This document shows, one piece after another, positions 26,929 through 61,886 of a stretch of DNA of 64,000 bases. A program made the position numbers and the translations under genes. The stretch lies in assembly GCA_043228905.1 (NCBI GenBank), contig JBHGNT010000008.1, positions 12,152,001 through 12,216,000 of the forward strand. The letters run 5' to 3'. Within the stretch, counting starts at the first letter, position 1. Every line of letters begins with the position of its first letter. The DNA is from Azolla caroliniana (lineage: Eukaryota; Plantae; Polypodiophyta). The notes under the pieces are model-generated. The model was not told where the DNA came from, searched no databases, and worked only from the letters and a program-made list of their open reading frames with translations.

Positions 26929-28768
26929 TGTCACGGACACACCAAGTCCGGACTAAGACGGAGCACGGATGATGAGGCTACGACAGAGTGATGATGGAAT
27001 GACACAAGAGCATAAAGATAGAGATGAAGATTAAGGAGAGAAGATGGGCAAAACGAGAATACTAGATTGATATGTCCATGATTGGCGTTGTTCACCTTGA
27101 ATTCCTTCAAGGTGAACTCAACTATTTATACTAAGTGGCATGCATACTTGTTGCATGCATGTGATACAATAGAGCATGTAGGCAGAAGGTACGCATGGTT
27201 GTGCCAAGTGTTAATAATACAAGGGAGAAATTATGCACATGATGCTAGCTAAAACCTACAATGAGGAAGTATATACATGATTATATGCTAGATGTGTGGT
27301 TAACACATAACACTCGATTATAACATGGTCATGTCAAGAGTTTGAATCTTGACATTATCCCCCCTTCAACGATGCCTTCCCAGATCGTTTGTCATGAGCG
27401 ACCATGTCTGGTCCTCGTCTAGAACTGGAACACAAATATCAACGGGTGTGAGCGACCACGGGGAGCATGAACACCAAGGGGCGTGAGTAACCATGTGAGG
27501 TCCTTGCCGGGAACTGGAACGGTCCTCGCTGAGAGTTGGAACACGAACACCAACGGGCGTGAGCAACCATGTTGTCCTCACCGAGAAATGGAACACGAAC
27601 GGGATTAATCGACCATGTGTGGTCCTCACCAGGAAAAGGAACATGAACAACAACGGGCATGAGCGACCATGTCGGTCCTCACCGGGATCTAGAACACGAA
27701 CAATAGTTGGAGTGAGCGACCGTGTGTGGTCCTCACCGGAGACTAGAACACAAACGGGAGTGAGCGACCATGCGGCCCTCACCGGGAACATGAACACGAA
27801 CGGGAGTGAGCGACCATGTGCGGTCCTCACCGGACACTGGAACACACCGGGAACTCGAACATGAACACCAACGGGAGTGAGCGACCATGTGCGGTCCTCA
27901 CCAGACACTGGAACATGAACGGGAGTGAGCGACCATGCGGCCCTCACATGGAACTCGAACACGAACGGGTGTGAGTGACCATGCGGCCCTCACCAGGAAC
28001 TTGAACACGAACACCAACGGGAGTGAGCGGCCTTGTGCGGACCTCACCGGGAACTGGAACACGAACACCAACGGGAGTGAGAACTAGAACACCAACACCA
28101 ATGGGAGTGAGCAGCCTTGTGCGGCCCTCACCGGGAATTGGAACATGAACACGAACGGGAAAGAAACTAAAAAATAGGGACAATGATGAGGAGAAACTAA
28201 AAGCCAATGAAAATGATGAGAAGAAACTAGGAGATAGAAATGGCGAGGAAGATAGGAAATGAAGCGATGTTGATGATGGTAACTCTAGAAGCAAGGTCGA
28301 TGAGGGAGACGGGTGATGCTTCTAGTTGGAAGGTGAACAAACTGTCACGGAAACACCAAGTGCGAACTAAGATGGAGCACGGATGATGAGGCTACGACGG
28401 AGTGATGACGGAATGACACAAGAGAATAAAGATAGAGATGAAGATTAAGGAGAGAAGATGGGCGAAATGAGAATACTAGATTGATATGTCCATGACTGGC
28501 GTTGTTCACCTTGAATTCCTTCAAGGTGAACTCAACTATTTATACTAAGTGGCATGCATACTTGTTGCACGCATGTGATACAATAGAGCATGTAGGTAGA
28601 AGGTACGCATGCTTGTGCCAAGTGTTAATAATACAAGGGAGAAATTATGCCCATGATGCTAGCTAAAACCTACAACGAGGAAGTATATACATGATTATAT
28701 GCTAGATGTGTGGTTAACACATAACACTCGATTATAACATGGTCATGTCAAGAGTTTGAATCTTGACA
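26929..28768 (-). mobile_element. Non-autonomous small LTR retrotransposon (TRIM/LARD-like), 1840 bp
   Basis: 426-bp LTRs at 26929-27354 and 28343-28768 (TGTCA...TGACA; ~15 differences by eye); perfect TSD CAATC; PPT GAAGGGGGGATAA next to the left LTR; no gag/pol motifs. Confidence 0.93.
27395..28160. repeat. Internal ~50-bp tandem array (~15 copies)
   Basis: Unit GTGAGCGACCATG(TG)CGGTCCTCACCGGGAACTGGAACACGAACACCAACGGGA. Confidence 0.92.
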
Positions 28769-29004
28769 CAATCGGCATCCACGTAGCCCACTAATTGTCC
28801 GTCTATACTTGCCTGATATAACAACCCATGATCCTTCATGCCGCTCACATATCACATGATTCAATGCACGCACTGAAGGTGATCGGCTTTCGGTTACGAG
28901 ATAAATTGACGGATTAAACCAACTGGATAACTGAGGTTTGGCCGGGTGATAGTCAAGTAGATGAGGGTTCCGACAATTTGTCGGAACCATGTTGGGCCAC
29001 ATGC

Positions 29005-29159
29005 TATCATGAAGTACAAAAGCTTCACATTAAAAGTCTACCAAAAGATAAATACGTAACTAAAATAAAATATATCTTGATAATGTTTTATATATATATT
29101 ATTTGCCTCTACATATAATGTATAATATTATCATAGTGTGTTTTTTAATATTACCTTTA

Positions 29160-29190
<31 letters not shown>

Positions 29191-30370
29191 ATATTATATT
29201 ACATGGACAAGAGAGGACTTGAACCAATAATATATATATATATATTATTTGCCTCTACATATAATGTATAACATTATCATAGTGTGTTTTTTAATATTAC
29301 CTTTATAAATAAATAAATATATATTATATTACATGGACAAGAGAGGACTTGAACCAATAATATATATATATATATTATTTGCCTCTACATATAATGTATA
29401 ATATTATCATAGTGTGTTTTTAATATTACGTTTATAAATAAATAAATATATACATATATTATATTACATGGACAAGAGAGGACTTGAACCAATAACCCCA
29501 ACCTTATGACTTTGAAACCTTACCATTTACCCTATAATTGTAGTATGTATAATTTACTATATGTCTTCTTTTATTTGAAGTAATATTGTATGGTTTAAAT
29601 CCTAAACCATATAATGTACTACATGTGCACCATATATTGTATTACATGGGTGAGAGAAGACTTGAACCAACAAACTCCACATTATGAACCTCAAAGCCTA
29701 CCATTTAGCCAATACTCATTATATATATAAAAGAAAATGTGTTGTTTTATTTGAAGTAGCATTGTGTAGTCTAAACCATGTAATGTACTACATGTGCACC
29801 ATATAGCACACATGCAAGAGCCCCTTTTTGCATGTGTGACATAGGGCCCACATGCAAAACCATCCCCTTCCTATAAAAGGAGAAGGGAGTATAGTGACAA
29901 GGATATGAAGGAATCGATCAATATCAAAAGAACTATATTATATATATCAATAGAATCAAATAGAGTTATGTTGTAAGAGATATCACAATAGAGAAAGAAG
30001 AAAAGAAGGTCAATATACAAGAGAAGCTCTAAGTTGGCGGTTGTGGTGCTCAACTCTCAACAAAAAGGGTGGAGGTTCGAGTCTTATCTCATTGAAAGAT
30101 AGAAGAGAAGATTGTGGTCTACTTGTGAGACAAAGTTCAAATTCAACAATGCTCGCAACTATTTTGTAACTCTTTCATCAAATAATTATAAATCTCTTTT
30201 ATTGCTTCAATTATCATTCTATATCCTATCTTGTCATATCTTGTTGATCACTATTTATCTATTTCTACTCTTTCATCACTTCCATCCAAAATCCTAGTGA
30301 TTCCTTCCTCACTTTCACGTTATCTTCTGTCTACGTAACGCTACGCTTCCAGGTGAGCCACGCCACGACA
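29005..30370 (+). mobile_element. Solo LTR X (TATCATG...CACGACA) with internal ~128-bp tandem repeats and tRNA-like boxes
   Basis: Flanked by ATGC and ACGC; TATA CTATAAAAG at ~29870; repeats at 29090-29510. Confidence 0.7.
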
Positions 30371-30374
30371 ACGC

Positions 30375-32621
30375 TGTCGTGAAAAAACCGTCACTACGTG
30401 CGGATCGTGAGGCGGAACCGCCGAGGTTCTGAACCGGAAGGATTCGAAGTTTGCACTAGCTTTAGCGAGAAAGGATTTAAGATAGATTGAGAGAGATTGA
30501 TATTGAGAGAGAGAGATTGAGATAAAGATTGAACGCTTGACTTTAGATTTGAGAGACAAGATATATTATGATAACTTGATTTATTATTATTATTATTATT
30601 ATTATTAATTTCTTCCCAAGTTCTTCATTCGTCCCATTTTGCTTGACCTCCATTCTTTTATAGATCCCCCAATGCATATGATGCATGGGAGGGTGCAAGA
30701 CATGCATGTAACACATTAAATGCATGCGATGCATGTTTGCCATGTCACTCATCCAAGCTCTCATGTATGAAATTTTACATATGAAAAGTATAATGATAAA
30801 AACATAACTTTAAAGTTATGACTTAGCTTAGTGGTAAGTCATGTGGCTCTTATGTAGGAGGTGTGAGGTTTAAATTTTTACTTACACTCTTATAAACACA
30901 AAATTTTACAAGGCTTTAGTCTTGTTTTTACAAATGTTCAACTGCATATTGCATCTACAGTTGACCTCCAATGAACCGACGGAACCGTTAGACAATTTTG
31001 TTCATTTCACATTGAAAATCTTCAAGACACCGTGCGTCGCAATCATCCTGTTCAACTGACTCGACCGATCCGTTTTTCCGGTTCGTCCGTTCCGGTTCCG
31101 GTTCTCCAAAACCATTTTGAACAACTTGGCCGCATCCATTTGTCCAAGTTATATAACCCAACCTTTTTGTGCTCCTAACACATAGATGAAATATAAAGAG
31201 ATATGGCTCTACAAATCATAGAATGAACCATACGTATCATACGTGCATTCGCATTCGAGAATGATTTGATCAAACGTGTATGGTAAATCATCTCAAAGTT
31301 GGATTGGATTCACTATGGTCTATATTATATATTGATTCACTCTCAATCCCAATAAGTGGACTCTAATCCATTGTGAACCACCAACATAAGTACGGTTGCA
31401 ATATTTGCATTGTATCACATGCATACTTTTGGGATGCTTCTTAAGAATCAAGACATCTCTATCATCCTCACTTTAGAACTTCACAAAAAAATGAGTATGA
31501 ACTATAGATATTGAATCAAAATATGTCATTATAAATTATAACGTTCAAAAACTCATAAAACGTATATTCAAGAATATGAAGAAAACATGACATAGGCAGT
31601 GGTAGCATAACAACTTACCACTAGGGTGACCTAATTTTCTAATAACAAAGAAAGAAAAAAAGAAAAGAAAAAAGAAACGATCAAAAACTCATAAAACGTA
31701 TATTCGAGAATATGAAGAAAACATGACATAGGTAGTAGTAGCATAACAATTTACCACTAGGGTGACCTAATTTCTAATACAAAGAAAGAAAAAATAAAGA
31801 AAGGAATATGACACTAACATAAAATGTTGCCATGACATAGGCAATAGTAGCATAACAACTTACCACAAGGGTGAGCTAATTTCTAATAACAAAGAAAGAA
31901 AGAAAAAGAAGAAAAAGAAGAAAAAGGAACATGACACTAACATAAAATTTTGCCATGACACTAACAAGAGGATATGAGAAAGTTGGGAATTGAACCCAAG
32001 ACACAAGTAATAATAACACAACAACTTAGCACGAGGTCGTGCTTACGTCTAATAATAAAAAAAGAAAAGAAAAAAAACTATTATAACACTAACATAAAAA
32101 AATTCTATAAATGGTACTAAAGAGATAGAGAAAGAGATGAGACAATTGGGAATCGAACCCAAGACATAGACAACAATAGCATGACTCTTTACCACTAGGA
32201 TGAGCTGAATTGTAATGAATTGTAACGATTAAAAAAAGGAGCACATATTTTTCCCATTTCAAACGTGTTCGTTTCCAAACGTTTGAATGCTTGTATGAAT
32301 ACAAATATTACGTTCTATAGCTTTACTTATATAATCTTGAATCCTGATGGTGTTCCATCTATGTGGGATATCTCATAGTTTTGTTTTCGTCTTCTTCTTC
32401 TCAAACTTCATACTCACATAACTTCACACTAAGTTGTCCATTTCACATGTAGTAAAATGCATTTAGAAGCTCTTGAAGACATCCATATTTTCGTAACAAG
32501 ATATTAAACTAATATAAAATAATATCTTCACTATTATTGTTTCATATTGTGTGTGAAGAACCACACTCGATTTTGTACATTCCTCGCAATTTTCACACCA
32601 TTGCCAAAAATCTTCACGATA
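30375..32621 (-). mobile_element. Solo LTR Y (TGTCGTGAA...TTCACGATA)
   Basis: Flanked by ACGC and ACAC. The left end shares CGGATCGT...GCGGAACC...GAGGTT with the LTR at 40840. Minus-strand TATA at ~30655-30664; degenerate tandem repeats at 31545-32210. Confidence 0.7.
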
Positions 32622-33315
32622 ACACCTTTCCCAATTTGGGGCGAAGCTTGACATTCCTATCAAGAGGAGTCAAGATGGATTTACAATCCATCATGCCCAA
32701 CTTGAAGAGCATATTGAGCACATAATCGTTGGTTGATCAATATGCCTTTGGGGTTCGGATCACTTCGATCTTGAGGAAGTAGTGAAGATCCCCCAGATCC
32801 TTCATCTCGAATGATGCAACAAGTTCGGAGTTGATGCAACCGATTTCCTCCAAGTCGGCACCGACGATGACTAGATCATCAACATAAAGTAAAATACTTA
32901 CCAGCTCATGTTGACCTTGCCGGATGAACAGTGAAGAATCTAACTTTGATGTAGCAAACCCTATCCAACGTAGTTCCTACGTGATCTTTGTGTTCTAAGC
33001 ATGTAGGTGTTGAGAGACGAGCTCAACATTGGGTGCGTAAATGAGTACATAACCCAGTGCGTAGACTAGGTGCATAAAACCGTACACAAAATATGGTCGT
33101 GGCAATGTTTAAACTGAGAGGCCGTTAGAGTGTTATTCCACATAAGGAATAATTTTAGGAGTAAGTGTAAGATGCTCATTTATAAGCGGTCAAGTACTGT
33201 AAGTACTTGTGTCATCCCAATAGTCAGGGATTGTATAAAAGGTGCTCATTGAGCACGAAGTATGTACAGAGAACATACAGAGAATTATTTTGAATATAGT
33301 TTTGTAGTTTTGTAG

Positions 33316-34140
33316 TTAAGAAACAAACGCCCTACACCCTCCTCCTCCTTGAGACGGGATCGCTTCCCATTGAGATCATGGCCATGGAAAGGGTTGTTGA
33401 ATACATGCTTAAGGTTCAAAAAAGTCCCTCACATCCACTTCCTAGAATTGTGTGGGAAGCAAGCAAAAAGATCCAAAAGACACATAAAAGCAAAATTTTG
33501 TGTTCTGGTTGGATGCAAGATGTAGAAAAATGGTTTGGTAGATGGGACATGAGACACTTGCTTCATGATGTGTCATTAGATTCCTTTGTAAATGAGGCCT
33601 TTTTGCAACACCAATGTATCATGACATGGGACAAATGTGGAGGCTCACGCTTCACACATTATACTACACATGTTGGACCTAACTACAAAACCATATTCTT
33701 TGCGGAACGGGGAAATCGTACACATCGATACATGTTAGCGCCCAGACCGTTATCTGCCATTTGAACCGTTGCTTCCATGCGACTTCGGTCACATGCATTG
33801 CAAGGTGAAACAGGGCGTTGGGGCACAAGTGATGAGAGTGGTCGGCTATGCACACTTTGCCCTAAACAAGTTCGCGAGTCTGAGTATCACACTTTGATAC
33901 AATGGTCTGCCTTTGATCATATTCGACCATGCTTTCCACATCTCTTCGACTGAGCCCAATCTTTGCATGAATTCCTCTAACAACCACAATGTGCACTCTC
34001 GATTGCAACATTCATTGGTAAAGTTCTTGAACATCGAGAGTCACAACTCACTTTCACACGTATCACGTGAAATGTAATATTTTTGGTCTCACAGGTCATA
34101 TTTGAACTCCGAAGAAGATAATATAATCTATCTATCTATC
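33316..34140 (+). mobile_element. 5'-truncated LINE (ORF2 C-terminus) with a (CTAT)n tail, inserted in the Copia A 5' LTR
   Basis: LLLETGSLPI...HPLPR...GWM and ETGRW...RLCTLC...ESEYHTLIQ (non-LTR ORF2 C-terminal cysteine motif); tail CTATCTATCTATC at 34128-34140. LTR sequence resumes on both sides. Confidence 0.8.
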
Positions 34141-34353: not shown

Positions 34354-37300
34354 TATGGACAGAGTAATGGGAAGCTCGCTACCGACTGAGAAGCTCGACA
34401 AGAGCAACTACCCATCTTGGTCGTACAAGATGCACTAGTACTTGCTTGGTCTTGGCTACTAGAGTTATCTCGATGGAGCTAATCATGCAGCGCCCGAATC
34501 AACAAACAGAGATTTTTTAGCTTGAGAACAAGCGGCAAGCAGAGTTCTTCACTGCTTCACGTCCTGTGTGAACGACCAACTCTTGAGCTACATTCGGGAT
34601 GCGAAGATGTGAAAGGATGCGTGCGCGAATCTCAAGAGGATTTTCACCGCTAGCACAACGGCCAAGAAGCTGCAGCTCAGGCAGGAGTTCAGCAATGTCC
34701 GACAGAAAGATCTATTTGTGGTCGATTACAAGACCTAAATCAAGGAGATCTGTGACTCTCTCACCTCTGTCAACGTGAACGTCGAGGAGGATGAAATGGT
34801 GCAGGTGTGTCGTGGTGGGTTAGTTTCAAAGTTCGGAGCGTTCTGGACGGCGGGTCGATGTTGCTCGTGGAGGAAAATCACGCGGGTGCGTCAAGAAGTA
34901 TACACACCAACAACAAGATGTTGTACACGGAGGAAGATAGGCCGCGTAGTCATGGCAGAAGAGGCGGATCAGCGCGCAATGGAGGCAACCGAAAAGAGTA
35001 GAACGTGTTGCATAATCGAAATGCCGGAAGCAATTCCGAATCCTCCGGAAGCAGGGGGAGTCATAGCTATGCCGGAAGCTAGCAAGAGAAGGTCGCAAAG
35101 GAATTCTAGTACTATGGCAAGAAAGGACACAGGGAGAGCAAGTGCTAGAAGAAGAAAGCCGATTCAGACAAAGCCGAATCAAGCGGAAGAGACGAAGGAA
35201 GGCATCAGAAATCATAGTACGCCGAGGGTTTTGAACGAGCCAGAATTGGATTGGGCCCAACCTTCATAATGAAGCACAAGGCCAATTCGATGGCCGTGAA
35301 CACCTCAAAATCAATGGAGGTGTGGTATGTTGATTCCAGAGCATCAAATCATATGACGAGTCATGAGGAATGGTTCTCGTACTTGGAGAAACACAAAAAA
35401 CAGGGAGTCATCGAAACGGGAAACGACACTCCGCACATCATCGAACATGTCAGAGAAGTTCCTCTCAGCCACGTAGGGCAGAAAGGGAAACGTATGAACG
35501 TGTTGCACGTCCCGACAATAACCAAGAACTTGGTGTCAGTCGAATAGATCATGGACCAGGGGTGGCAAGTTCGATTCACGCACCTCGGGTGCTACGAAGA
35601 GGAAGGCAAAGTTATTGCGCAAGGGCGCCGTGAAGGGAGGATGTTTATCTTGGACACCAATCAAGCCAGAACCGCGATGTTCGTGAAAGGACAAAAGATC
35701 GAGTCGGACATCGACCTCTGGCATAAGTGGTTCGGCCATATTAACTTCCCACGGCTTGGTGAAATGCAGACGAAGAACATTTTTTTCGGCTTGCCGAAAT
35801 TTCGGGGCCATAGTGGCCAAGTTTATGAAGCCTGCCAACTCGGGAATCAACACCGACTTCCATTTCCCAATGATCGTAATCATAGTCAAAATCCGTTGGA
35901 TTTGATCCATTCAGATGTGTGGGGACCGGCACAAAACGTGAGTCTCACTGGAAGCCGTTACTTCGTAACCTTCATCGATGACTTCACTCGGCATACCTAC
36001 GCATGCTTGATCGTGAAAAAGAGCGAAGTCTTCGCGTGGTTCCTGAAGGTGAAGAACCTTGCAGAAAGAAGTGCCTACGGTCCGATGGCAGGAAGTATTA
36101 CTTCTCCAACCAATTCATGAGTTATCTACAGAAGGAGGGAATTCGACGTGAATTATGATGTAGATATACATCGGAGTAGAACGGCGTAGCCGAGCAGAAG
36201 AATCGGACGATCGAAGAAGCGACCAGGGCAATGCTTGAAGAGAAGCATATGCTGAAGTTTTACTGGGCTAAAGCCGTAAGGACGGTTGTTTACTTGCAAA
36301 ATCAAACATTTGCTAATGGAGGAGTGTCACCACATGAGTTGTATTACGGCAAGAAGCCAAACTTGGCACGCTTGAGGATTTTTGGCAGCATTACGTATGT
36401 GCATGTGCCGAAGGAGAAGACGAGGAAGCTGGATGCCAAAACCGAAGGGTGCATCTTAGTCGGCTATTCAGATGAGAAAAAGGGGTATAATTTCTATAAC
36501 CCTTCAATGAAGGAAGTTCGCGTAAGCCGAGATGTCATGTTCGACGAGTTTGCTTCGTGGTACTTGCCTTCACCTCCAATACCTCAAGACTCCATTCCGA
36601 ATTCTGAAGAAGAGATTAGCGAGGCTGAGATGCCTCTACGTGATGAGGATACCGGGGCTTTGATATAGAGCCCGATCTCATTTCGGCTAAGTGAGCCGAA
36701 TGAGGGGTTGGGCTGAGATGGCCAACCAAATGAAGAGCCAGCGAGTAGGGGAGACTCGGCCGTGTTTTCCCGCATAAAGAACTGAGGAGATGGTTTATGC
36801 GTAAAGAAAAAGGGAAGAAGAAAATGTCGGAATACGATTTCGGCAGTGCCTAGTCAGATCAAAGCGAATTTGACTTGGGGCCAATCGAGAAGGAACCTCC
36901 ACGGAAGGGGTCGAAATCGACTGAAAAGGTCGTGAAATCGGGTAATCACGAATTACACCGATCTACGGGCCTAAAGAACCCTGTAAAGAGGTACGGGTAC
37001 AATGAATACGTGGCGCACCATTACGCGTACATGACACGAGTGACAGAAGTGCGTGAGCTAGAAAGCTACGCAGAAGTGGCGGAAGACGCAAACTGGCGTG
37101 CCGCAGTGGAAGAGATGCGTGCATTATCAGACAACGAGACTTGGGACCTGGTTGATGCACCTAAAGGTGTTAAGCTGATTGGATGCAAATGGGTGTTTAA
37201 GGTGAAATACAATACCGACAGCTCGGTCAACCAATGCAAGGCCCGTTTGGTTGTGAAAGGCTACGCGTAGAAGCACGACGAAGATTACGACGAGACCTTT

Positions 37301-38210
37301 GCTCCAGTTGCGAAAATGACTACCGTGCGAGTTTTGCTAGCCATAGTTGCGGCGAAGGGGTGGCATCTATATCAAATGGATGTAAAGAATGTGTTCCTTC
37401 AAGGTGATCTCGAGGAACATGTGTACATGGTTCAGCCCCCCGGATTTCTATCCGAACAAAACACTTCGGCAGTTTGCCGATTGAAGAAGATGTTATACGG
37501 CCTTAAGCAAGCCCCACGAGCTTGGAACACGAAGATTACGCAACGGTTGCTTAGAATGGGGTTTACGACCTCCGAATCAGACTCTTCGTTATTCATTCGG
37601 CAAGGTCGACATGGAACATTTTGTCTTTTACTCTATGTTGATGATTTAGTCCTCGCTGATGCCGACCTAGAAGAAATCGGTTGCGTAAAGTCTCAGCTTG
37701 GAGCATTGTTCGAAATGAAGGATCTTGCCAACCTTCATTACTTCCTCGGGATCGAAGTGATTCGTTCCCCCGAAGGCATATTGATCAGTCAGCGTCATTA
37801 TGCGTTGAATATGCTCTTCAAGTTCGGCATGGCATATTGTAAGCCCATCTCGACCCCTCTGGATATAAATGTAAAGCTTCACTTAGATTCGGGAAAGGCG
37901 TGTGACCCGACACAGTTTTGACAGATTGTCGAAAGCCTCGTCTACTTGACGATCACTCGGCCGGAATGATCAGTCAGTTTATGTCGCAGCCCCACGACCA
38001 AACACCTTCAGTGCGTGCAAAGAATATTACAGTATGTCTGCGACACGCAAGACATGGCGTTGTTGTGTCGTAGAGGCGTAGCCGAACAGTTAGTTGGCTA
38101 CATGGATGCCAATTGGGCCAGAAATGCCCATGATCATAGATCAACATCCGGATACGCCTTCTCATTGGGAAGTGCGGCGATCGCATGGAGCAGTAAGAAG
38201 CAGCCGACCG
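34354..38210 (+). pseudogene. Copia A gag-pol pseudogene with the RNase H end deleted
   Basis: WYVDSRASNHMT (PR); IHSDVWGP; KARLVVKGY; YVDDLV; YMDANWA; truncated after WSSKKQP. Confidence 0.92.
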
Positions 38211-40839: not shown

Positions 40840-41602
40840 TGTCGTGCCTTTCGGCTCCGGATCGTTGCGTGAGTCGGGCGGGAACCATTGAGGTTTTGGA
40901 CTAGGAAAAAATAAAATTCTAAGGCAATGAAGAATATGAAATATGTTGTAAGAAAGAAAGATATGAAAAACTCGTTAATCCCACGAGTATAGTGTATTAG
41001 TGAGTACTCAGATTAAGAGAGAAAAATAGTTAGCAAATTCGTGAATCCCACAATTATATTATATTAATCCACCCTTGTAAAATAAACAACAACCACTATA
41101 CATCTTTCTCTCTCCCTTATATAGTGTTGGAAGAGTCTAAGTTTATCACATGCAAGCATCATGCTTTTCCTAACTTTAGTTTTCATGCACACTGCATGTG
41201 CATGATTAGTTTTCCTAACTTTAGTTTTCATGCACACTGCATGTGCATGATTAGCTTTCTATCCCATCTTTTTCTTTTTTTAACTCGAGTGTGTATGCAT
41301 GAATAACTTTTTGTACCATGCATATCTAGAATATTTACATGGGATAAAGTTTAGTATAACTCTAAAATTCATAATATGCTAGTATAGTGGTAAGGCTGGG
41401 GTTTGTCTACGTGGAGGTACAGGGTTCGAACCCTGCCCTATTCATGTAATAAATATTTTTCATATTTTATTTTATTTATTATACGTACTTTAAATTGGAT
41501 ATAGTATTTTACATATTTCACATAGTGTGTGATTCACACTACGACACTCGCCCCCTCCGAACCCGCACATCCTCCGGTATGTGCCGAAGTCCCCGATGCT
41601 TG

Positions 41603-42247
41603 CTATTCACCTTCATCCGAAGCTTCCTCCGATTCTCCCCTTAAGTCGACTATGACTTGTAATCCACTTTCTTTGCTTTCCGCATCACCGCAATCTTCGT
41701 CTGATTGCTCCTTCTTGTCGGTCTTGTCTAGGATCACATAGGGTTCTTCATCAGTCTGCTTTTGGAAAATCTTCACCCGTTTCACAGCTATAGGCACTCG
41801 TAGCATCGTTCCATCCAACTCGCATAGTCGGTAAGTTCCGTTGTGGAAAAATTTCCGAACCTCATATGGCCCGAACCACCTTTTCGCGAACTTCCGCACC
41901 GTTGTATGTTGATGATCCAAACTACTGTCGTAGACAATCACTTAATCTCCTTCTTCAATCTTCCGTGGTTGTAGTCGGTGTTTTGTGTCGAACCGGCTTT
42001 TATTCCGGAATCGCGCTTCTTGTTGTCGGCGTATTGCTTTCGCTATGTCTTCCGGTTTTCCCTCTAGTTATCGTATCCGGACCGCTAGTAGTTCTCCCCG
42101 GCTTATCTCTTCCTTCCACGGTAGCACTGTCCATGTCGCGATCGCGGTTTCCGTTGGCATTACCGGTGCTTGTCCAGTCATCAGTTTTGCCAGCATGTAA
42201 CTGGTTACGGAGCTATGGGTCGTCCAATCCGCCCATAGTGCATACGG
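41603..42247 (-). pseudogene. Gypsy integrase C-terminal part (GPY motif)
   Basis: RKFAKRWFGPYEV...NGTYRL...RVKIF. Confidence 0.85.
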
Positions 42248-42922
42248 TGTCGTGCCTTTCGGCTCCGGATCGTTTGCGTGAGTCGGGTGGGAACCACCGG
42301 GGTTTTGGACTAGGAGGAAGAAAAATACAAATAAGGCTAGTAAAGAATAGGTATAAAGAGTTATAAGATAAGAATCTCGTGAATCCCACGAGTTTAGTAT
42401 ATTTAGTCAATATTTAGGTAGTAAGAGAGAATTATTTTAGCAAATTCGTGAATCCCACGAATATTTTAGATTGATTGATCATTATAGAAAAATAATCAAC
42501 AAAAACTACAATGTGCTCCCCATCCTTATATAGTGATGGGAGAGACTAAGCATAGCTACATGCTTTTTCTAATATGTTCATGCACACTAAATGTGCATGT
42601 GATGCTTTTCTAATCCTTGCTTTTATTTGCTAAATATAGTGCTCATGCACGCTAGATGTGCATGAGTCACTTTTTTGTTGCTTGCGTTTTTCTATAAAAT
42701 ATTCACGCACTCTAAAATATGCACGATTTACCTTTTAATAAAGTTAGGCGCAAATAAAGCACTTATAGTTATTAAATCTATTTATAGAACACTAAAGATA
42801 AGGTAGCATAATGGTAAAGTTGAGGTTTGGCTACGTGGAGGTACAAGGTTCGAATCTTGCCCTATGCATGTGATAAATATCTTGATATTCTTATTTTATT
42901 TATTTATATGTAATTAAATCGG

Positions 42923-44998
42923 TTATATTATTTTTACTTTTTCACGTAGTGTACGAAATACACTACGACACTCGCCCCCTCCGAACCCGCACATCCTCCG
43001 GTATGTGCCGAAGTTGCCGATGCTCGTTGTCTCCCCTTCATCCTCCGTTTGTCCCGCTATGTCAACTTTGTCTCTCCATTTTGAGTAGACCCATTCTTTC
43101 CACCCGAACCATTGTCGCCATCCGATCCACCATATTCTTTGTTCTCTCTCGTCATATTCTTGGCCCTTGTCATTCGTGGTAGTGTCTTTTACTGGCCTCT
43201 TTCTTGTCTTCATCAACCTTGACTTTTTTCCGGATCGCTCTCGTCCGATCGACTTTCGGTTTGATCGGCTTCCAATCGGATTCGTATTCAGCCGAATCGG
43301 AATCGGTTGTTCGGTTTTGATTGAGCCGGTCTCCTTCCGCCCCGGTTTCGATCTATCGGTTTCGGTTTCGGTTGGCTTTCTTTTCCTCGTTTTCACCAGC
43401 CTCGACCGGTCCAACCTCCGGTTGAGTCGGATTAGCTTCTTTCCGGATCGGTCTCGTCCGATTGGCTTTCGGCTAGGTCGGCTTCCATCCATATTCGCGT
43501 TCGGCCAAGTAAGACTCGGTCGATCGGTTTTGACCGATTCGACCCCTTTTCGGGTCGGCTTTCTTTCGGGTCGTCTTTCGGCCGAATCCTCATTCGCCCG
43601 GTTCGGCTTTCGTTTGTGTCGTCTTTCGGCCGAATTCTCTTCCTTTCGGTTCGGCTTTCTTTCGGGTCGACTTTTGGTCGAATCCTCTTTTACCCGGTTC
43701 GGCTTTCTTTCGGATCGGAATCCCGTCCGGATCACCTTCCATCCAAACTGGCTTCCGACTTTACCTTCCTTGCCGCCACCTCCCGTCTCTCCGGTCTCAC
43801 GTTGCTTCTCAGACACAACCGCCGAAGTCTCTAGGATTAGTGGGTAGGAATCCTCGGTATTATCATCCTCCATTGTTTCACCCATAGCCATATTCTCGGC
43901 TATCTCTCCGTCATACACATCGACTTCGACCTTTGTTTTCTCTCCGCCACCTTCCGTCTCTTCGGTCTCACGTTGCCTTTCGAACGCAACCGCCGGAGTC
44001 TCTGGAATTAGTGGTGGGGAAGTCTCAATATGGCCATCCGTCGTTGATTCGTCCATAGCCACCTTCAATTCGATGTCATCTTTCGTGGTGACCTCCTCAA
44101 TCAAGTCCTCCTTGCTCTCTTTCACTGCATCAATTATGCAAACATCAATTATGCTTACCCCTTTTTCACCCGAAGTTTCAGACACTTGTATTCCGAAATC
44201 TTCTTCTACACTTGGGTTATCGGCCTTATCCTTTGTCGTTGTTCTTTCGCAAGACAAGAGGGTAGCTTGTTTTACACCCTCTTTCGTCGCACCATCATGT
44301 TGTATTTCGGCCTTCATATCGGCTCCATCGTTTGTCTTCAATCGACCATCCTTCATCGGCCATGTTGTTGACAAGATTCTCATCTTCCTCTCATCATGTC
44401 TCCGGCATACCCTTTGGACTTCGGCCCAATTTTCGGTAAGACCATTCGTACCGTCATCGTCTTCGAGTTCGATCCCGATGTCCATCCTTTCTTTTCGATC
44501 GATCGATTTTACGAACATTAGGACTTTATCCTCTCCCACCAATCGTTGTTCCCGCTCCGAGAGTCGAGCAAAACGATGCTCGAACTCTAGGAATGCTTGT
44601 GTTGCACTTCGGTGGGTCTTCTCCGATGCCACCCATTCGTCGAATTTTCGCCGATCTTGTCCCTTTGATCTCTTGTAATCATATGCCTCTCGTAAAGCTT
44701 CTTCGAATGACCCCCATGTCGAGTTTTGTTGCCGTATCTTGTGGATTCTCTCTTGTAGCTCATCCGTGGCCACCCGATTGAAGGATGTCACTTGCAATCC
44801 TTCCGGTATCCCACATCGTATCATCTCCGCCTTGTAGTCACGTAGATAGCGTGACACATCGTTTCCGTTGAATTGTCCGTTTCGTTGTACGAGCCGCTTT
44901 ACTGCCCCCGTGATCTCCGACATCACTCGTTGTTCTTGTAGCATCCGCTCGAACATCATCATCATCGTTATGCTCATTGCCTCTTGTTGATTCTCCAT
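42923..44998 (-). CDS. Intact Gag-like protein, 691 aa from the first ATG after the PBS
   Basis: N-terminus (GQFNGNDVSRYL...WGSFEEAL...FVKSID...LTENW) is homologous to the host Gypsy gag pieces. It is followed by an acidic region, basic RKPNR-type repeats and a Trp-rich tail; the stop lies in the 3' LTR. Confidence 0.85.
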   Translation of the reverse strand: MENQQEAMSITMMMMFERMLQEQRVMSEITGAVKRLVQRNGQFNGNDVSRYLRDYKAEMIRCGIPEGLQVTSFNRVATDELQERIHKIRQQNSTWGSFEEALREAYDYKRSKGQDRRKFDEWVASEKTHRSATQAFLEFEHRFARLSEREQRLVGEDKVLMFVKSIDRKERMDIGIELEDDDGTNGLTENWAEVQRVCRRHDERKMRILSTTWPMKDGRLKTNDGADMKAEIQHDGATKEGVKQATLLSCERTTTKDKADNPSVEEDFGIQVSETSGEKGVSIIDVCIIDAVKESKEDLIEEVTTKDDIELKVAMDESTTDGHIETSPPLIPETPAVAFERQRETEETEGGGEKTKVEVDVYDGEIAENMAMGETMEDDNTEDSYPLILETSAVVSEKQRETGETGGGGKEGKVGSQFGWKVIRTGFRSERKPNRVKEDSTKSRPERKPNRKEENSAERRHKRKPNRANEDSAERRPERKPTRKGVESVKTDRPSLTWPNANMDGSRPSRKPIGRDRSGKKLIRLNRRLDRSRLVKTRKRKPTETETDRSKPGRKETGSIKTEQPIPIRLNTNPIGSRSNRKSIGRERSGKKSRLMKTRKRPVKDTTTNDKGQEYDEREQRIWWIGWRQWFGWKEWVYSKWRDKVDIAGQTEDEGETTSIGNFGTYRRMCGFGGGECRSVFRTLREKVKII

Positions 44999-45014
44999 CT
45001 CCTTGCCACCCGCC

Positions 45015-45032
45015 TTCACGTCGGGTTCACCA
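45015..45032 (-). promoter_or_regulatory. Primer-binding site complementary to the 3' end of tRNA-Trp
   Basis: TGGTGAACCCGACGTGAA, 4 nt inside the 5' LTR; matches the plant cytosolic tRNA-Trp 3' end as recalled (...TTCACGTCGGGTTCA-CCA). Confidence 0.85.
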
Positions 45033-45795
45033 ACTGTGTCGTGCCTTTCGGCTCCGGATCGTTTGCGTGAGTCGGGTGGGAACCACCGGGGTTTTGGACT
45101 AGGAGGAAGAAAAATACAAATAAGGCTAGTAAAGAATAGGTATAAAGAGTTATAAGATAAGAATCTCGTGAATCCCACGAGTTTAGTATATTTAGTCAAT
45201 ATTTAGGTAGTAAGAGAGAATTATTTTAGCAAATTCGTGAATCCCACGAATATTTTAGATTGATTGATCATTATAGAAAAATAATCAACAAAAACTACAA
45301 TGTGCTCCCCATCCTTATATAGTGATGGGAGAGACTAAGCATAGCTACATGCTTTTTCTAATATGTTCATGCACACTAAATGTGCATGTGATGCTTTTCT
45401 AATCCTTGCTTTTATTTGCTAAATATAGTGCTCATGCACGCTAGATGTGCATGAGTCACTTTTTTGTTGCTTGCGTTTTTCTATAAAATATTCACGCACT
45501 CTAAAATATGCACGATTTACCTTTTAATAAAGTTAGGCGCAAATAAAGCACTTATAGTTATTAAATCTATTTATAGAACACTAAAGATAAGGTAGCATAA
45601 TGATAAAGTTGAGGTTTGGCTACGTGGAGGTACAAGGTTCGAATCTTGCCCTATGCACATGATAAATATCTTGATATTCTTATTTTATTTATTTATATGT
45701 AATTAAATCGGTTATATTATTTTTACTTTTTCACGTAGTGTACGAAATACACTACGACAACGGAAGCATCTGCAGCCAATCCTTCACCCTTCCGT

Positions 45796-46607
45796 TGTCG
45801 TGCCTTTCGGCTCCGGATCGTTGCGTGAGTCGGGTGGGAACCACAGAGGTCTTGGACTAGGAGAAAGAAGTTCGTGAGATAGAGATTAATTATGAGTAAA
45901 TAGCAAAGAGAAAGATAAGAAACTCGTGAATCACACGAGTATACTATATTAATTGGTACTTAGGGTGTTAAGAGAGAAGTAGATGTATAAATCGTGAATC
46001 CCACGAATAATTTTTTTTTTATTGATTCATACTTAATCCAAATAATCAACAACCCTTTATATATTTCTCTCCTCCTTATATAAGGAAGGAAGAGCTAAGC
46101 ATGGCTTCATGCTTTTTTTTTTTTTACAAAAAGTGTTCATGTCCACTAAATGTGCATGTGATGCTTTTTTATTTCCTAAGTATAGGGCTCATGCACGCTA
46201 GATGTGCATGAGTTATTTTTAGTGTCTCGTGTTTTCTTTTTCATATATTAAAAAAATACACGATTTACCTTTTAATAAAGGTATGCATAAATAAAGGTCT
46301 TATACGTATTAAATCTATATTTAAAACACTTAAGATAAGTTAATGTAATGGTAAGGTTGGGGTTTGTCAATGTGGAGGTGCAGAGTTCGAATCACGCCCT
46401 GCGCAATAGTGAGTATTTCCTTTTTTTTTACATTTATGTCTCTTTATCCGGCTCTTCCTTGCCGGTATGCCGTTTTCTTCCTTGCCGGTATGCCGTTTTC
46501 CTCCTTGCCGGTATGCCGTTTTCTTCCGGTTCTCACCGAGCACTCCATTCTCTATCCGGAGGGACAAAAATATAATTTCCACATAGTGTGCAACCTACAC
46601 TACGACA
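45796..46607 (-). mobile_element. Solo LTR of the same Gypsy lineage, in the host integrase
   Basis: TGTCGTG...CTACGACA ends; TSD CCGT; internal ~22-bp repeat CCTTGCCGGTATGCCGTTTTC x3 at ~46455-46525. Confidence 0.92.
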
Positions 46608-46611
46608 CCGT

Positions 46612-49600
46612 CGCATGCTTTTGCAAGTGCTTTGAGGATCGGACTATATCCTCATTCGATTTTCCCGTTGGCCTCCGGATTGTATGCCGTTGTTAGTGTT
46701 ACCCGAACTCCATGTTTGGTGAAGAATTCCTTAGCTTTATCAGAGTCGAGTTCTCCCAGATCTGCAATCACTTGTCCTATGCACCCGTACCTGCAAAACA
46801 CCTACTCCAAAAGAAATTGGCATACCGCAGAACACGTTTTCCTTCGTAGAGCCTGACCTTCTACTTGGTTTGTGAGATCTTCCCGAGCTAACACCAAGTA
46901 CTTCTTTTGTCCGATCCCAGTTGGCATGGCTACAATGTCGACCATCCATTTGAAGTTGATTGTCGGTGAGAATGTCGAATGTAACTCATCTAGGTGTCGA
47001 ACTCCGGAGTAGATTTGACACTTCTTGTAGCTTTCCGTGAACTCCGCTATATCTTTGTACATATTCTTCCACCAATATTTTTGTTTGATTTTCACAAAAT
47101 TTGCCCATGTCCCTCGATGTCCAGCCCAATCAGATTCATGAAACTCGGACATTATTCGGTTTTGTTGCTCTTTCATCCTGACTACCTGAAGTGGTATGCC
47201 CTCCGGTCTTTTCGGCTCCCTCCATATTAATCCGTTTTTCAAGAAGAACTTTTGGACTTGCCTCTTCTTCCTTTGGATCTCGGCTCTCTTCTCTTTATCG
47301 TCCGGTGATTCCTCAATCTCTTGTAGCACCTTCCCGATCATCAAGCTTTCTCCTTCGTATTCTTCTTCTCGGAATTCTCGGATTACGTTTACTCGGCATA
47401 TGTGCTCCGAAGCAAGTAGTCTTCAGAAACTTCTTCATTATCGGATTCGGCTATGTCGTCTCCGAACCAAGCCATTGATAGCATATCCGCTACCTCATTG
47501 TCTTTTCCGGAGATGTGTCATACCTTCGGATTAAGTGACTTAACATATGCAATCCATCTTAGCATAGCCACATCCGGTATCGTGCAACACCGCATCATCA
47601 TGAGTATCAGAAGACAATCTATTTCGATCACTACTTCGGCTCCGATCAAATAATATCGATCTGATTTGATTGCCTACACGACTCCCCATAATTCTCTTTT
47701 GACTTGTGCATATCCATGTTGCCTTTTGTTGAGAACCTTACTCCGAATCGGATCGGATATCGGAAACCATCTGAGTCAGCTTGATTAATGACCCATCCAA
47801 TCCCGGTTGGGCTTGTATCAACCGTTACTATAACCAGTCGGTCATAGTTTGGCTTCTTTAGTGCTTTTGCCCTCCGTAGTGATTTCTTGAGCTTCTTCAC
47901 GGGTTTGGTATGCTCTGGTTTCCATTCAAACTTCTTCCCCTTCCACAACAAGTGATAGAGTGGGTCCGTTATGTGTGCATAGTGCGGAATCCATATATGG
48001 TAAAATGCACATGCCCCAAGAAATCTACGGACTTCGGATTGCGACTCGCATATCTCTTTCATAGCATGTATCGCATCGACCTTGGTTGGTGACGATCTTC
48101 GGCCGTAGGGCCCACATAGATGTCCGACTACCAATATCTCTTCTTGTCCGAATGCTGATTTCTCTCCGAAAAGTGTCAGGTGCACATCTTCTAACTTTCG
48201 TAGCACTTTCTCGCAATCACGAATATGGTTGACTACGAACTGTCAGCATCCCTGATCATCCATAGTCTCGTCTTTTTCTTCCACCGCGCATCCTTTTATC
48301 GGAATGTCATCTAGGAACGGCATCGTTATCTCCGGAATGCAGTCCCTGAGCACCTTGTTCATTGCATTCATCATATGTGCGACCGAGTTCATCGCGCCTT
48401 GTGGTAGCGTACACATCCGGACTAATCCTATCGGTGTCTGCATGGTAGTGATGTCTCGGCTCTCCACAGCTAGTTGGAATTGGTCATACCCCGAGTATAG
48501 GTCTCCGATGGAGTATATCGCATGACTGGCAAATGCTTCCAAAAATTCGTCCACTATCGAACCGACTCTGGAGTTCCGGATCATGACCTTGTTCACCGGT
48601 TGCAAGTCTTGGATAAATCGGAGTGACTCATTCTTCTTCGGAACTGTAAACCATCGATTTGAGTACAGAGCATTTGATGGCTCTAGAATCCCCATCGCTA
48701 CCTTCTCCTTGAGCAAGTCGATGATTTTCGGAATATGCGCCCGTGGCACTAGAATTGGCTTTAGGTTCCACGGCACATGGTCAATCGTGAAGATCACCAT
48801 CGGCTCCACTATCTTCGGGTCACCGCGTCCTATTTCTTTCGATGTAAATGCAAATGCTCTCCCATGTCACTCTAGCATCCCACAGAATCGTTCTTCTTCA
48901 TTGTTTAATAGGAACCCACCTCCACCGATCTAAAGTTTCTTCCGGGGGTCTCATCCATGAAGGCATGTCCGATATCCATGGACTTCCGAAGTGTCGGATC
49001 CCTCGAGACTTCTTTCCTCTTTTGTTCGCTATCAGCGGGTAACGGTCCCCCGACCGGTTTCACTTTCTTCTCCACGGTCTTGTATTTCGTACTTACCATT
49101 GCTTCTTCTTTGTGGAGTGCATCCGGCCCCATTTTCACAATGATCTCGTACATCTCGACCGATTCCACCGGGACTACCCGGCCTCCCTGGCTTGTATCTT
49201 CCGCGAGCTCTTCAAGCCGTTGTACTGTGCTCCCATAGAACACTTCTTCGACTATTCCCACGATTTCTTCATCTTCTTTATTATTGATGCCGACCGTAAT
49301 TTATCCTCCACTTTTCGGCATTCTTTCTTCATTCCTCCGGTTACGTCCATGTACATAGATGCCCCATCCGGACTAATTCGTACTTGTTTTGCTCAAGAGT
49401 TTTCTTCCTATGTGGGGAATGAGGGCTTCTCGGACTATCACTTCCCCACTCCGCAACAATCCGCTCTAAAAATCCATCCTTGTTTGGGACAAGAGCTCTC
49501 TCTTGTTCCTTTCATGATTTGCTAGCACAGTTAGGAATTGGACGGATTTCCCTCCGCTTTGGCTCTGAATTCATGCGAAAGCCGCACCGCTATCGAGCAC

Positions 49601-51288
49601 CTTTGTCTCCATCCGTGAAGCTGTGATAAAGGGTTGCCCGAGGATCACGGAGTGGGAGACCTCGTCTTGTACGAAGAAATTTTGGTCGATCTCGACATCC
49701 CCGAACTTCACTGTCACATCCGGACAAGCCGCAAATAGATCTTTCGTTGCTTTAGTGGCCGCCCAGATCTTCCATCCATAATTGGTGTTAATAGGCCACT
49801 TCCCCTTCCGGTAGAAATCCTTAGACATCAAATTGATCTCTGATCCGTGATCAATCATTGCTAACACGAGCTCTTTGATGTTGCCAATTCGGACCGGAGT
49901 CTCCGTAGTTGCACATGCCCAGTGTGGCTTTGTATAGTGGGAATTCGGAATCTCGTCCTCCACTTCGGTGTCGTTCATCAGAACGGTATTTGCATTCACC
50001 ATTGGCGCATTTTCCTCCGTACTTTGTCTTTTTCTCTTCATGAGATCCACAAGAAGATCGTGGAACTTCTTCTTCACTATTCTAAGTAATTCCCGAAGCG
50101 AAAATTCTACCCGGCTATCGAGGATTCTCTCTTCGAACACCTTTTTCAAGTCCGTTTGTTGTTCGATGTTCAAGGCGAGCTTGAATGCCGGAATCTTCTT
50201 TTCTTTTCCCTTCCCTCCAGAGTTCCAACTTTCCGGTGTCTTTGATGGTCCGGCCGCATCATCCGTGCGCCGTTGTTTTTCATCCACATACACTTCATGC
50301 AATTGACATAGTGCATGTACGCTATTCTTATCTATGGGGCACTCCCATCACGTAGCTTCCTGGATACATTCCGCGGCGCATCGGATTTCATCATGGTCAG
50401 CTTTCTTCAAAATTTCTAACACTTCCGGCCAAAAAGACGCCTTTGCTGCAGATGACTCCCCCACACGTATTCCCGCGGTTGTCACATAATTGTTTTTTGC
50501 CGCGATCTCCTCCTCTAGGACCTTCTTCATGCCACCTTTCCGGAAGTTCGGTCGGAGTGGCTTCCGAGAATCCATCGAATGAATCTGATTTCCCTCGTAG
50601 TAGATAAGATCCCGTCATAGCGCCTCCTTGTGCTCGTCGCAATCTCTCCGATCATGTTCGGTGCTATCGCACCATATGGATCGACGGTCCATATACATGG
50701 AACTTGTGGGATGGACTTCCGTCTTCTTCACCATTGCGATTTTGAAATTCTCCATCTCCTTCAGCAATTGCTCCACCGTGGTTGCGTCGATTCCCTTCTC
50801 GGTCGTAGTCACCCGAGCCCGCAGTTCATGGTCTTCCGATCCGGATCTTGGTTTCAGAATCAGTTCCGAAACCCTCTTGTCTTCGTTGGCAAGCCATTGC
50901 CCCCTCTTTGTGTATCGCGCGGCGATATCCCGCACGCTTTCCCATGTTTCGGTGAGGCCACTCTCGGTAGTTGTGTCCTCTAGAAGGACTCCAATATCCT
51001 TTCGGTCTCGGATGTCTACAGCTCGTAAGAACATGATAACTTTGTCCGATGCGAGGATAGCTTGATCTCTCGCAGACAAACTCCCGAACCGACTTTCGAA
51101 TGACGAAAACACATCGAGGACCTTCATCCCCTTGTCCGGCGTTTCCACCCAATCCTCGAATCCTCTCCGCATTGCCTTGGAGGAGTCCTCGATAGCGAAT
51201 GTGGTCTTTAGCGCCTCTTCAAACGTTTCCCACATCGGATTTTGTTGTCGTAGCCCGTGGATACTTGCTTAAAGCCCGTCGGTAGCCA
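46612..51288 (-). pseudogene. Gypsy gag (3' part), PR, RT, RNase H and integrase pseudogene
   Basis: AMIDHGSEINLM (PR); DLYSGYDQF, LPQG and FLDDI (RT); VTVDTSPTGIG (RH); HESDWAGHRG...YWW...CQ (INT). Confidence 0.92.
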
Positions 51289-51498
51289 TGTTGTAGGTTT
51301 TTAGGGTTAGGGTTAATGGTAATGATGATTGGTGATGGAGATGGTGTGTTTAATGAGGATGATGAGCGTTATGGGATCGATGGTGAGAGAGACGACAAGC
51401 ATTGAGAAGCATTGTGGGGTGGGGGGTGGTGCCTAGAATGGCTCCACCCCCCTCCCCAAGGGGTTCAACGTTGAGGGAGAGAGATAGGAAGAGAGGTG

Positions 51499-51551
<53 letters not shown>

Positions 51552-54500: not shown

Positions 54501-54710
54501 TCCGTCGAAACACTTTACAAATCATCGGATCCTTTTATAGGCATCCGGCAAGGTTACAATCGGTGCGCTTAGGCAACCGACATCCGAATCGGTTCGGATC
54601 CGGATCGGTACAACTGTACCGAATCCGTCCCTCCGAATAATAATTCTACTATTACTTCCTATTATTCGATCCGCCTTCCCACTTGCCCTTGCTCTTCTGA
54701 CCGGCCAACA
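51289..54710. mobile_element. 3422-bp insertion with TGTTG...CAACA ends, probably a very large solo LTR, in the Gypsy gag
   Basis: Perfect 5-bp TSD AGCCA (51284-51288, 54711-54715). Removal rejoins gag SFNWVA-TDGL. No internal direct repeats or pol motifs seen. Confidence 0.8.
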
Positions 54711-54951
54711 AGCCACCCAGTTGAAGGATGCCACTTGCAGTCCTTCCCAAATCCCGCACCGTATCATTTCCGCCTTGTAGTCCTGAAGATAACGTGATAC
54801 GTCCTTTCCGTTGAATTGCCTGATCCGTTGCACAAGCCACTCTATTGTTGCCGCTATCTCCGACATCACACGTTGTTCGTGAAGCATCCGCTTGAACATC
54901 ATCATCATGTTGTTAGCCTCCGGTTGATTTTCCATCTCCTTGCCACCCGTG

Positions 54952-54969
54952 TTCACGTCGGGTTCACCA
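54952..54969 (-). promoter_or_regulatory. tRNA-Trp primer-binding site of the host Gypsy
   Basis: Identical 18-mer to 45015-45032, 4 nt inside the LTR. Confidence 0.85.
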
Positions 54970-61800: not shown

Positions 61801-61886
61801 GAGACTTGTGTTTTTGGTAAACAGTCGCCTAGGCCTGGTCACTGCGACCTCCTCTGTGAGAAGGCACCCCTTCTCCCAAAGTTACG
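61801..61886 (-). pseudogene. rrn23: Plastid 23S rRNA fragment
   Basis: Reverse complement reads CGTAACTTTGGGAGAAGGGGTGCC...GTCGCAGTGACCAGGCCTAGGCGACTGTTTACCAAAAACAC, a conserved plastid 23S segment. Confidence 0.85.

What the first reader, a model, noticed from the sequence alone, without database searches (positions are those of the whole stretch)
29001..32625. Two different solo LTRs stacked in the same ACGC site, leaving a triplicated target
Seen: the layout is ATGC-[X 29005-30370]-ACGC-[Y 30375-32621]-ACAC, with an intact junction CACGACA-ACGC-TGTCGTG. Collapsing it to one ACGC restores the Copia RT frame (GK-AC-GP, matching GKACDP in Copia A). Inference: the outer copies decayed by CpG deamination on opposite strands (CG to TG and CG to CA), so the site was methylated, and the second element hit the TSD of the first. 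A repeat hit on one tetranucleotide independently supports target specificity.
Basis: partly seen in the sequence, partly recalled or inferred. Interest (0 to 1): 0.7.

Follow-up and report, generated by a model that had tools for sequence, protein, structure and literature searches.

The report
Two solo LTRs share one target
Two unrelated repeat ends, likely left by separate jumping-gene insertions, sit back to back in one four-base spot of an older element with the spot copied three times; this is likely an ordinary double insertion, helped by a CG-site preference already published for a moss group that these elements resemble.

Summary
Observation confirmed: ATGC-X-ACGC-Y-ACAC. Both flanks map to the same four bases of uninterrupted Copia RT copies. 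X and Y are alike only at their tips, code for nothing and likely face opposite ways, U5 to U5. The refuting test fails for Y. None of 6 Y-family ends in public contigs abuts X; two abut a primer-binding site, so Y is an LTR. X's right end also runs into non-Y DNA, but X was never seen beside a primer site. Contigs crossing the left junction read ACGC in 3 of 4 runs, which supports CpG decay. The inference is overstated. NCGN preference is published for Phygy (PMC6317226), and 3 of 3 other such insertions in the window have NCGN duplications. The repeat hit weighs as one more CG site (26-fold) and is expected somewhere in 264 windows (P 0.2-0.9). Double insertion with a duplicated target in the junction is known (McGurk and Barbash), and the scan noted it in other genomes. 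Order and genome-wide counts are untested because no genome is held. Verdict: real, tidy, ordinary.

The parts
28769..29000 (-). Host Copia, pol sequence downstream of the insertion (just past the RT core)
   Evidence: 68-74% identical to uninterrupted copies at 37898-38115 and 57530-57762; in frame with them
29001..29004 (.). Target copy 1, ATGC (ACGC with CG->TG)
   Evidence: contigs crossing this junction read C at 29002 in runs X1, X2, X4
29005..30370 (+). X: likely solo LTR, 1366 nt, TATCATG...CACGACA, internal ~130-146-nt tandem repeats
   Evidence: tips; TATA-like box 29871-29879 on + only; no Pfam hit in six frames; repeats; a 361-nt contig leaves the window exactly at 30370 (record 6)
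30371..30374 (.). Target copy 2, intact ACGC between the two inner (U5) ends
   Evidence: same four bases as the empty site in the copy at 37898-37901
30375..32621 (-). Y: solo LTR, 2247 nt, U5 end at 30375
   Evidence: L002 and L003 carry the same end 8 nt from a primer-binding site; TATA-like box 289 nt from the U5 end, against 285-286 nt in the window's paired LTRs; no Pfam hit
31210..32323 (.). 1114-nt segment of Y that some family copies lack: nested insert or LTR length variant (undecided)
   Evidence: joint 31209->32324 with 3 letters fitting both sides, in runs X1, X2, X4 and X1, X2, X3; ~38-nt imperfect inverted ends
32622..32625 (.). Target copy 3, ACAC (ACGC with CG->CA)
   Evidence: the derivation is inferred from the empty site, and no contig crossing this junction was among the rows shown
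32626..33000 (-). Host Copia reverse transcriptase upstream of the insertion
   Evidence: Pfam RVT_2 E 1.3e-18; 74-76% identical to uninterrupted copies

Best explanation
X and Y are unrelated repeats that sit back to back in one ACGC of a Copia RT gene with the ACGC present three times, and they are likely the solo LTRs of two Phygy-like Gypsy elements that inserted one after the other. Steps: (1) a Gypsy integrase that prefers NCGN cut ACGC and left two copies of it (the duplication is shown; the preference is shown for 3 of 3 neighbours and published for Phygy). (2) Each duplicate is itself an NCGN target, and a second element of another LTR family later hit one of them in the opposite orientation, giving three copies (inferred). 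(3) Each element was reduced to one LTR by LTR-LTR recombination (inferred, textbook route). (4) The two outer CGs later decayed by deamination, probably of methyl-C (the change is shown for the left copy; methylation is inferred). X first is weakly favoured, not shown. No preference finer than NCGN is needed.
For: Both flanks meet the same 4 nt of empty Copia copies, and the middle 4-mer equals them. X and Y: local score 29-36 against shuffle maxima 38-45. Of 7 metagenome matches to a Y pattern, 6 are Y-family ends and 1 matches the pattern only. Of the 6: 2 abut a primer-binding site, 1 follows ACGT, 1 follows TTGT, 2 lack the terminal bases, and 0 lie next to X or hold X sequence. In each of 4 runs 13-53 contigs reach Y's U5 end from unrelated DNA (loose ends at 30388). 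The three other insertions with TGTCGT...ACGACA ends have ACGT, ACGG and CCGT duplications (chance 5e-5). Phygy: 4 bp NCGN in 100% of 186 elements, tRNA-Trp primer site in 81%. At least one stack in 264 windows has P 0.20-0.89 under a CG-only rule with 2-5 insertions per window.
Against: X was not found beside a primer site or purine tract, so its LTR status rests on its tips, a TATA-like box and its copy number. Both outer tips read TA, not TG, and match each other at 9 of 10 bases, better than either matches its own inner tip; whether TA is decay or native was not resolved. Per window of this density the stack has only a 0.8% chance under a CG-only rule. No one-element intermediate (host-X-host or host-Y-host) appeared among the joints shown, which were 15 of 190 and 15 of 56. 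X and Y hold no coding sequence, so their lineage cannot be placed directly.
Confidence: 0.82

Rival explanations
1. Double insertion as above, but driven by a finer preference: these integrases favour an NCGN that lies against an existing LTR end, so each insertion builds a better target for the next, across families.
For: The per-window chance is only 0.8% under a CG-only rule. Two other NCGN insertions in the window hit sites 32 nt apart in one integrase gene, among 2422 CGs. P-element dimers form at better-than-average sites.
Against: One case, picked from a large scan; P up to 0.89 over 264 windows. None of the 6 Y-family ends fetched abuts another LTR end of this type (0 of 7 loci match the junction pattern). 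An unreviewed note on this genome found insertions near element ends rare (e1-10618240, not tested here).
Confidence: 0.1
2. X+Y moved as one 3.6-kb unit bounded by two U3-type ends (a 10-bp terminal inverted repeat), and the junction is internal.
For: The outer tips match at 9 of 10 bases, including the shared TA. An integrase could accept two U3 ends; an unreviewed note describes a two-tail Copia insertion in this genome (e1-10619871).
Against: The middle 4-mer equals the host target (about 1 in 16 by chance even given NCGN; arithmetic). Y's inner end is a U5 end found beside primer sites and other flanks, 0 of 6 next to X. No contig crossing the X|Y junction was among the pieces shown, while 13-53 per run reach Y's end from other DNA (tables cut).
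Confidence: 0.04
3. Y is a solo LTR, but X is a non-autonomous Ginger-type DNA transposon or other non-LTR unit with a 4-bp duplication.
For: No primer site or purine tract was seen for X. Ginger1 makes 4-bp duplications and has TG...CA ends (passage).
Against: X's inner 7 bases equal those of Y and of the window's paired LTRs. Its inverted match is about 7 bp, not a long TIR. It has a TATA-like box and the same antisense tRNA-like module as the paired LTRs.
Confidence: 0.04

Closest known systems
Tandem TE dimers formed by double insertion (McGurk and Barbash, bioRxiv 10.1101/158386; passages and section 10 read)
   Same: Two insertions at one site, with the target duplicate kept in the junction and matching the preferred target motif.
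   Different: There the dimers are of one family (P element, hobo, R1, Jockey), LTR tandems are put down to recombination, and inverted tandems are mostly set aside. Here there are two unrelated LTR families, likely solo and U5 to U5. Being unrelated and inverted, this pair is predicted not to expand by unequal exchange.
Phygy clade, non-chromovirus Ty3/gypsy (Neumann et al. 2019, PMC6317226; passages and supplementary table 5 read)
   Same: 4-bp NCGN duplication. The primer site beside Y relatives and beside the window's Gypsy matches what I recall as plant tRNA-Trp. The neighbouring full element has RT-RH-INT order with no chromodomain or extra RNase H hit.
   Different: Phygy was described as specific to Physcomitrella patens, with 7.7-10.0-kb elements. 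The neighbour here is about 10.5 kb without its nested inserts and has long non-coding stretches. X and Y have no coding part, so membership is untested.
Tandem LTR-retrotransposon structures in plants (PMC11899658; passages read)
   Same: Adjacent LTR-element structures under one target site in plant genomes.
   Different: Those alternate near-identical LTRs and interiors in direct orientation with no extra duplication inside. This one has unrelated LTRs, opposite orientation and an internal duplicate.
Nested LTR insertions (Jedlicka et al. 2019, PMC6911290; passages read)
   Same: Gypsy elements nested in older LTR elements; 4-bp duplications with a GC-rich centre, commonest in Phygy.
   Different: The passages I read deal with nesting inside elements, not with re-use of a target duplicate.

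Membership tests
Double-insertion dimer (McGurk and Barbash) | Junction holds a duplicate of the target, of the element's TSD length | tested here: met
   ACGC at 30371-30374 equals the empty site at 37898-37901
Double-insertion dimer (McGurk and Barbash) | Intact element ends at the junction and the same duplicate on both outer sides | tested here: met
   CACGACA|ACGC|TGTCGTG; outer copies differ by one transition each; the left copy reads ACGC in other contigs
Double-insertion dimer (McGurk and Barbash) | Partners occur independently elsewhere | tested here: met
   Y: 0 of 6 relatives next to X. X: weaker, one contig leaving at 30370 and high depth at its left tip against the host flank
Double-insertion dimer (McGurk and Barbash) | One-element intermediate at the locus | tested here: inconclusive
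   Not among the joints shown; tables cut to 15 of 190 and 15 of 56
Solo LTR | Homologue serves as the LTR of a full element (next to PBS or PPT): Y | tested here: met
   L002 and L003 have the Y end 8 nt from a primer-binding site identical over 16 nt to that of the window's Gypsy
Solo LTR | Homologue serves as the LTR of a full element: X | tested here: inconclusive
Solo LTR | TG...CA termini | tested here: inconclusive
   Inner (U5) tips are canonical; both outer (U3) tips read TA; decay or native not resolved
Solo LTR | No interior, flanked directly by the TSD | tested here: met
   No Pfam hit at E<=0.01 in six frames of 29005-32621; duplicates abut both ends
Phygy | 4-bp TSD of the form NCGN | tested here: met
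   ACGC here; ACGT, ACGG and CCGT for 3 of 3 neighbours; defined
Phygy | tRNA-Trp primer-binding site | tested here: inconclusive
   The site is present for Y relatives; its assignment to tRNA-Trp is recalled, and searches did not confirm it; unknown for X
Phygy | No chromodomain and no extra archaeal-type RNase H (separates it from TatI) | tested here: inconclusive
   No such Pfam hit in the neighbouring element 40840-55637, but that is a third LTR family; X and Y have no interior
Phygy | Placement in the clade by RT, RH and INT phylogeny | not testable with these tools
   The reference FASTA and per-element table of PMC6317226 were too large to read; X and Y encode nothing
Phygy | Element of 7.7-10.0 kb, interior almost all polyprotein | tested here: not met
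   Tested on the neighbour only: about 10.5 kb without nested inserts, with long non-coding stretches. Not testable for X or Y
GingerRoot DNA transposon (for X+Y as one unit) | 6-bp TSD and 100-150-bp TIRs | tested here: not met
   4-bp duplication and a 10-bp outer match; definition

The most novel reading that the evidence does not exclude
Integrases of this CG-targeting Gypsy lineage prefer an NCGN that abuts an existing LTR end, so every insertion regenerates two improved targets and unrelated families stack at exact single sites far more often than CG counts predict.
Probability: 0.1. Interest if true: 0.55.

Novelty: new member of a known kind. Interest (0 to 1): 0.2.

Why it matters
As it stands it is a clean teaching example. 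A target that survives duplication can be hit again, and LTR-finding tools that expect one duplication will mis-annotate such stacks as one element with inverted ends. It adds one data point that an NCGN-targeting, Phygy-like lineage exists outside the moss in which Phygy was described (host lineage not tested here; an unreviewed note calls it likely a fern). It would matter more only if a genome-wide count showed an excess of such junctions, which would mean a plant integrase reads LTR ends in its target.

Tried and rejected
No whole genome is held, so the genome-wide junction count and separate X and Y searches could not be run. Patterns from Y and from X found nothing in viral contigs. The single metagenome scan went to Y, so X has no fetched copies. 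L007 matches the 24-nt pattern region only and is 55% GC; it was dropped as a non-homologue. The junction pattern matched 0 of 7 loci. ARAGORN found no tRNA in the window, and Rfam gave only two sub-threshold matches over the region. The integrase homologue search gave 77 proteins from environmental sources with no useful names and was not used. Contig depth differs strongly between X and Y, but the tool says summed depth is no copy number, so I did not rest on it. Absence of a junction-crossing or one-element contig in cut tables proves nothing. The order of insertion could not be read from the decay pattern, which is symmetric. X's lower CpG ratio (0.42 against 0.85) and the sharing of the host|X junction by diverged copies only hint that X came first. 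Look-ups of earlier findings by sequence or relatives gave nothing. The tRNA-Trp assignment could not be confirmed from papers. Paper searches listed no paper describing stacked solo LTRs of two families in one NCGN site; most hits were seen as listings only, and subscription journals are not covered.

Full report
Observation. The layout is exactly as reported: ATGC at 29001-29004, X at 29005-30370, ACGC at 30371-30374, Y at 30375-32621 and ACAC at 32622-32625. Self-comparison of the window aligns the left flank (28769-29004) and the right flank (32622-33000) to uninterrupted Copia copies. Both flanks end on the same four bases, 37898-37901, which read ACGC on the matching strand; a second copy has ACAT. 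Translated separately, the flanks are in the frame of the uninterrupted copy (GKACDP there), and the right flank is Copia RT (RVT_2, E 1.3e-18). Public contigs show the empty site in 3 of 4 runs (joint 28992->32640). The 4-bp duplication and its third copy in the middle are therefore real.

X and Y are different things. Their best local alignment scores 29-36 against shuffle maxima of 38-45, and neither aligns clearly to the window's other LTRs (best 48 against 43). Six frames give no Pfam hit. A TATA-like box lies on + in X (29871) and on - in Y, 289 nt from its left end, which matches the 285-286 nt of the window's paired LTRs. So the two likely meet U5 to U5, in opposite orientation. Y's direction is confirmed by its relatives (below); X's rests on the TATA-like box and on a tRNA-like module oriented as in the paired LTRs.

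The refuting test. No genome is held, so I used public contigs. A 20-nt pattern from Y matched 7 metagenome contigs. Six are Y-family ends and one matches the pattern only. In L002 and L003 the end lies 8 nt from a primer-binding site that is identical over 16 nt to the one beside the window's own Gypsy LTRs. In L005 it follows ACGT and in L006 TTGT, and in L001 and L004 the terminal bases are missing. None of the six lies next to X or holds X sequence. In four sequencing runs, 13-53 contigs per run reach Y's U5 end from unrelated DNA. Y is therefore the LTR of full elements and occurs without X. For X the evidence is thinner. One 361-nt contig follows X to exactly 30370 and then leaves the window, another runs three bases into the duplicate, and X's left tip is far more deeply covered than the host flank. 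No X copy was seen beside a primer site or purine tract.

Decay of the outer copies. Contigs that cross the host|X junction read C at 29002 in X1 (depth 33.8 of 71.2), X2 (27.8 of 27.8) and X4 (15.2 of 15.2); X6 showed none. The two such contigs listed differ from the window at about 4-5% of sites, so a diverged allele or paralogue of this junction kept ACGC. That directly supports ACGC to ATGC. ACAC is inferred by symmetry. Such decay is background here: 5 of 17 CGs shared by both reference copies read TG or CA in the host flanks, and opposite strands are as likely as the same strand. Methylation is the probable cause but was not measured.

Target specificity. The window holds three more insertions with TGTCGT...ACGACA ends: 40840-55637 (ACGT/ACGT), 42248-45759 (ACGG/ACGG) and a solo LTR at 45796-46607 (CCGT/CCGT). 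Three of three NCGN has a chance of 5e-5. The full element has RT-RH-INT order and no chromodomain or extra RNase H hit. Neumann et al. 2019 state that Phygy elements prefer NCGN (passage), with 4 bp in 100% of 186 elements and a tRNA-Trp primer site in 81% (supplementary table). Their per-element table and reference FASTA were too large to read and bear on membership. With 2422 CGs and five such insertions, an exact re-hit has a chance of 0.8% per window under a CG-only rule and 0.03% under random insertion. The ratio, 26, is simply the inverse of CG frequency, so the repeat hit weighs as one more NCGN site. Over the 264 windows noted for this genome, at least one stack has P 0.20, 0.48 or 0.89 for 2, 3 or 5 insertions per window; the true density is unknown. 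One case cannot show a preference finer than NCGN.

Mechanism. A CG-targeting Gypsy inserted at ACGC and duplicated it (shown). Each duplicate is again a target, and a second family hit one in reverse orientation (inferred). Both elements collapsed to solo LTRs (inferred; established route). The outer CGs decayed (shown on the left). The order is open; X first is weakly favoured by its lower CpG ratio and by the shared, diverged host|X junction.

Against this reading. Both outer tips read TA, not TG, and match each other at 9 of 10 bases, as a unit with short inverted ends would. I give that 4%, because the middle 4-mer equals the host target and Y's inner end is a U5 end found in other contexts. 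Whether TA is native to these families was not resolved. No one-element intermediate and no contig crossing X|Y or Y|host appeared, but the tables were cut. A finer preference for sites against LTR ends is not excluded (10%): two other insertions hit sites 32 nt apart in one integrase gene.

Comparison and novelty. Double insertion with the duplicate kept in the junction is described for P elements and other Drosophila TEs (10.1101/158386; passages and section 10). Plant LTR tandems of the shared-LTR kind are different (PMC11899658, passages). GingerRoot does not fit (PMC6839031, passages). My searches listed no paper on this exact cross-family, inverted, solo-LTR form in plants; they do not cover subscription journals. 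The scan itself has noted re-used targets in other genomes and a Phygy-like pile-up in this one; these are AI notes, mostly unreviewed, and I did not test them. It works like a double-insertion dimer of Phygy-like elements. Phygy membership is not established. Verdict: real, correctly described, a new instance of a known kind; interest 0.2.

Noticed in passing
window 31210-32323: Some Y-family contigs skip this 1114-nt segment, with 3 letters fitting both sides. It has ~38-nt imperfect inverted ends and many contigs enter it from unrelated DNA near 31217. It is a nested insert or an LTR length variant; without it Y would be 1133 nt.
   Followed up: partly
window 29480-29533, 29658-29704, 41387-41433, 42811-42857, 45600-45646, 31986-32195: tRNA-like A-box/B-box modules lie antisense in the U3 part of X and of the paired Gypsy LTRs, and in the other sense inside Y's 1114-nt segment (motif recalled). 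ARAGORN and Rfam do not call them.
   Followed up: partly
window 40840-55637: Gypsy with LTRs 98% alike (650 matches, 12 mismatches), an ACGT duplication, a primer site and a purine tract. It holds a younger deleted element (42248-45759, 3 mismatches between LTRs, ACGG) and a solo LTR (45796-46607, CCGT); the two targets were 32 nt apart in the integrase gene.
   Followed up: partly
window 28850-29072: Run X1 holds both a T-bearing and a C-bearing form at 29002, and a run with another organism label also crosses this junction, so the host|X junction exists in at least two diverged copies (allele, paralogue or homoeologue).
   Followed up: partly
window 26929-28768: TRIM-like element with 426-nt LTRs (15 mismatches), a 5-bp CAATC duplication and an interior of 46-54-nt repeats, inserted in the same host Copia 232 nt from the stack.
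   Followed up: no
L001 891-923, L004 381-413: Two Y-family U5 ends lack the terminal bases and are joined to the same other sequence; both contigs also match window 33733-34031.
   Followed up: no
window 30375 and 30887: One contig in run X1 runs along Y to 30887 and then restarts at Y's U5 tip, which may be a Y-family copy nested in another.
   Followed up: no
window 5023-7049 (-): Sugar-transporter gene pieces (Pfam Sugar_tr), the only non-TE Pfam family among the 42 ORFs scanned, apart from one sub-threshold hit.
   Followed up: no
window 59470-64000: Tandem ~729-nt repeats of a Copia fragment in reverse orientation, matching the pre-integrase region at 35503-36207.
   Followed up: no
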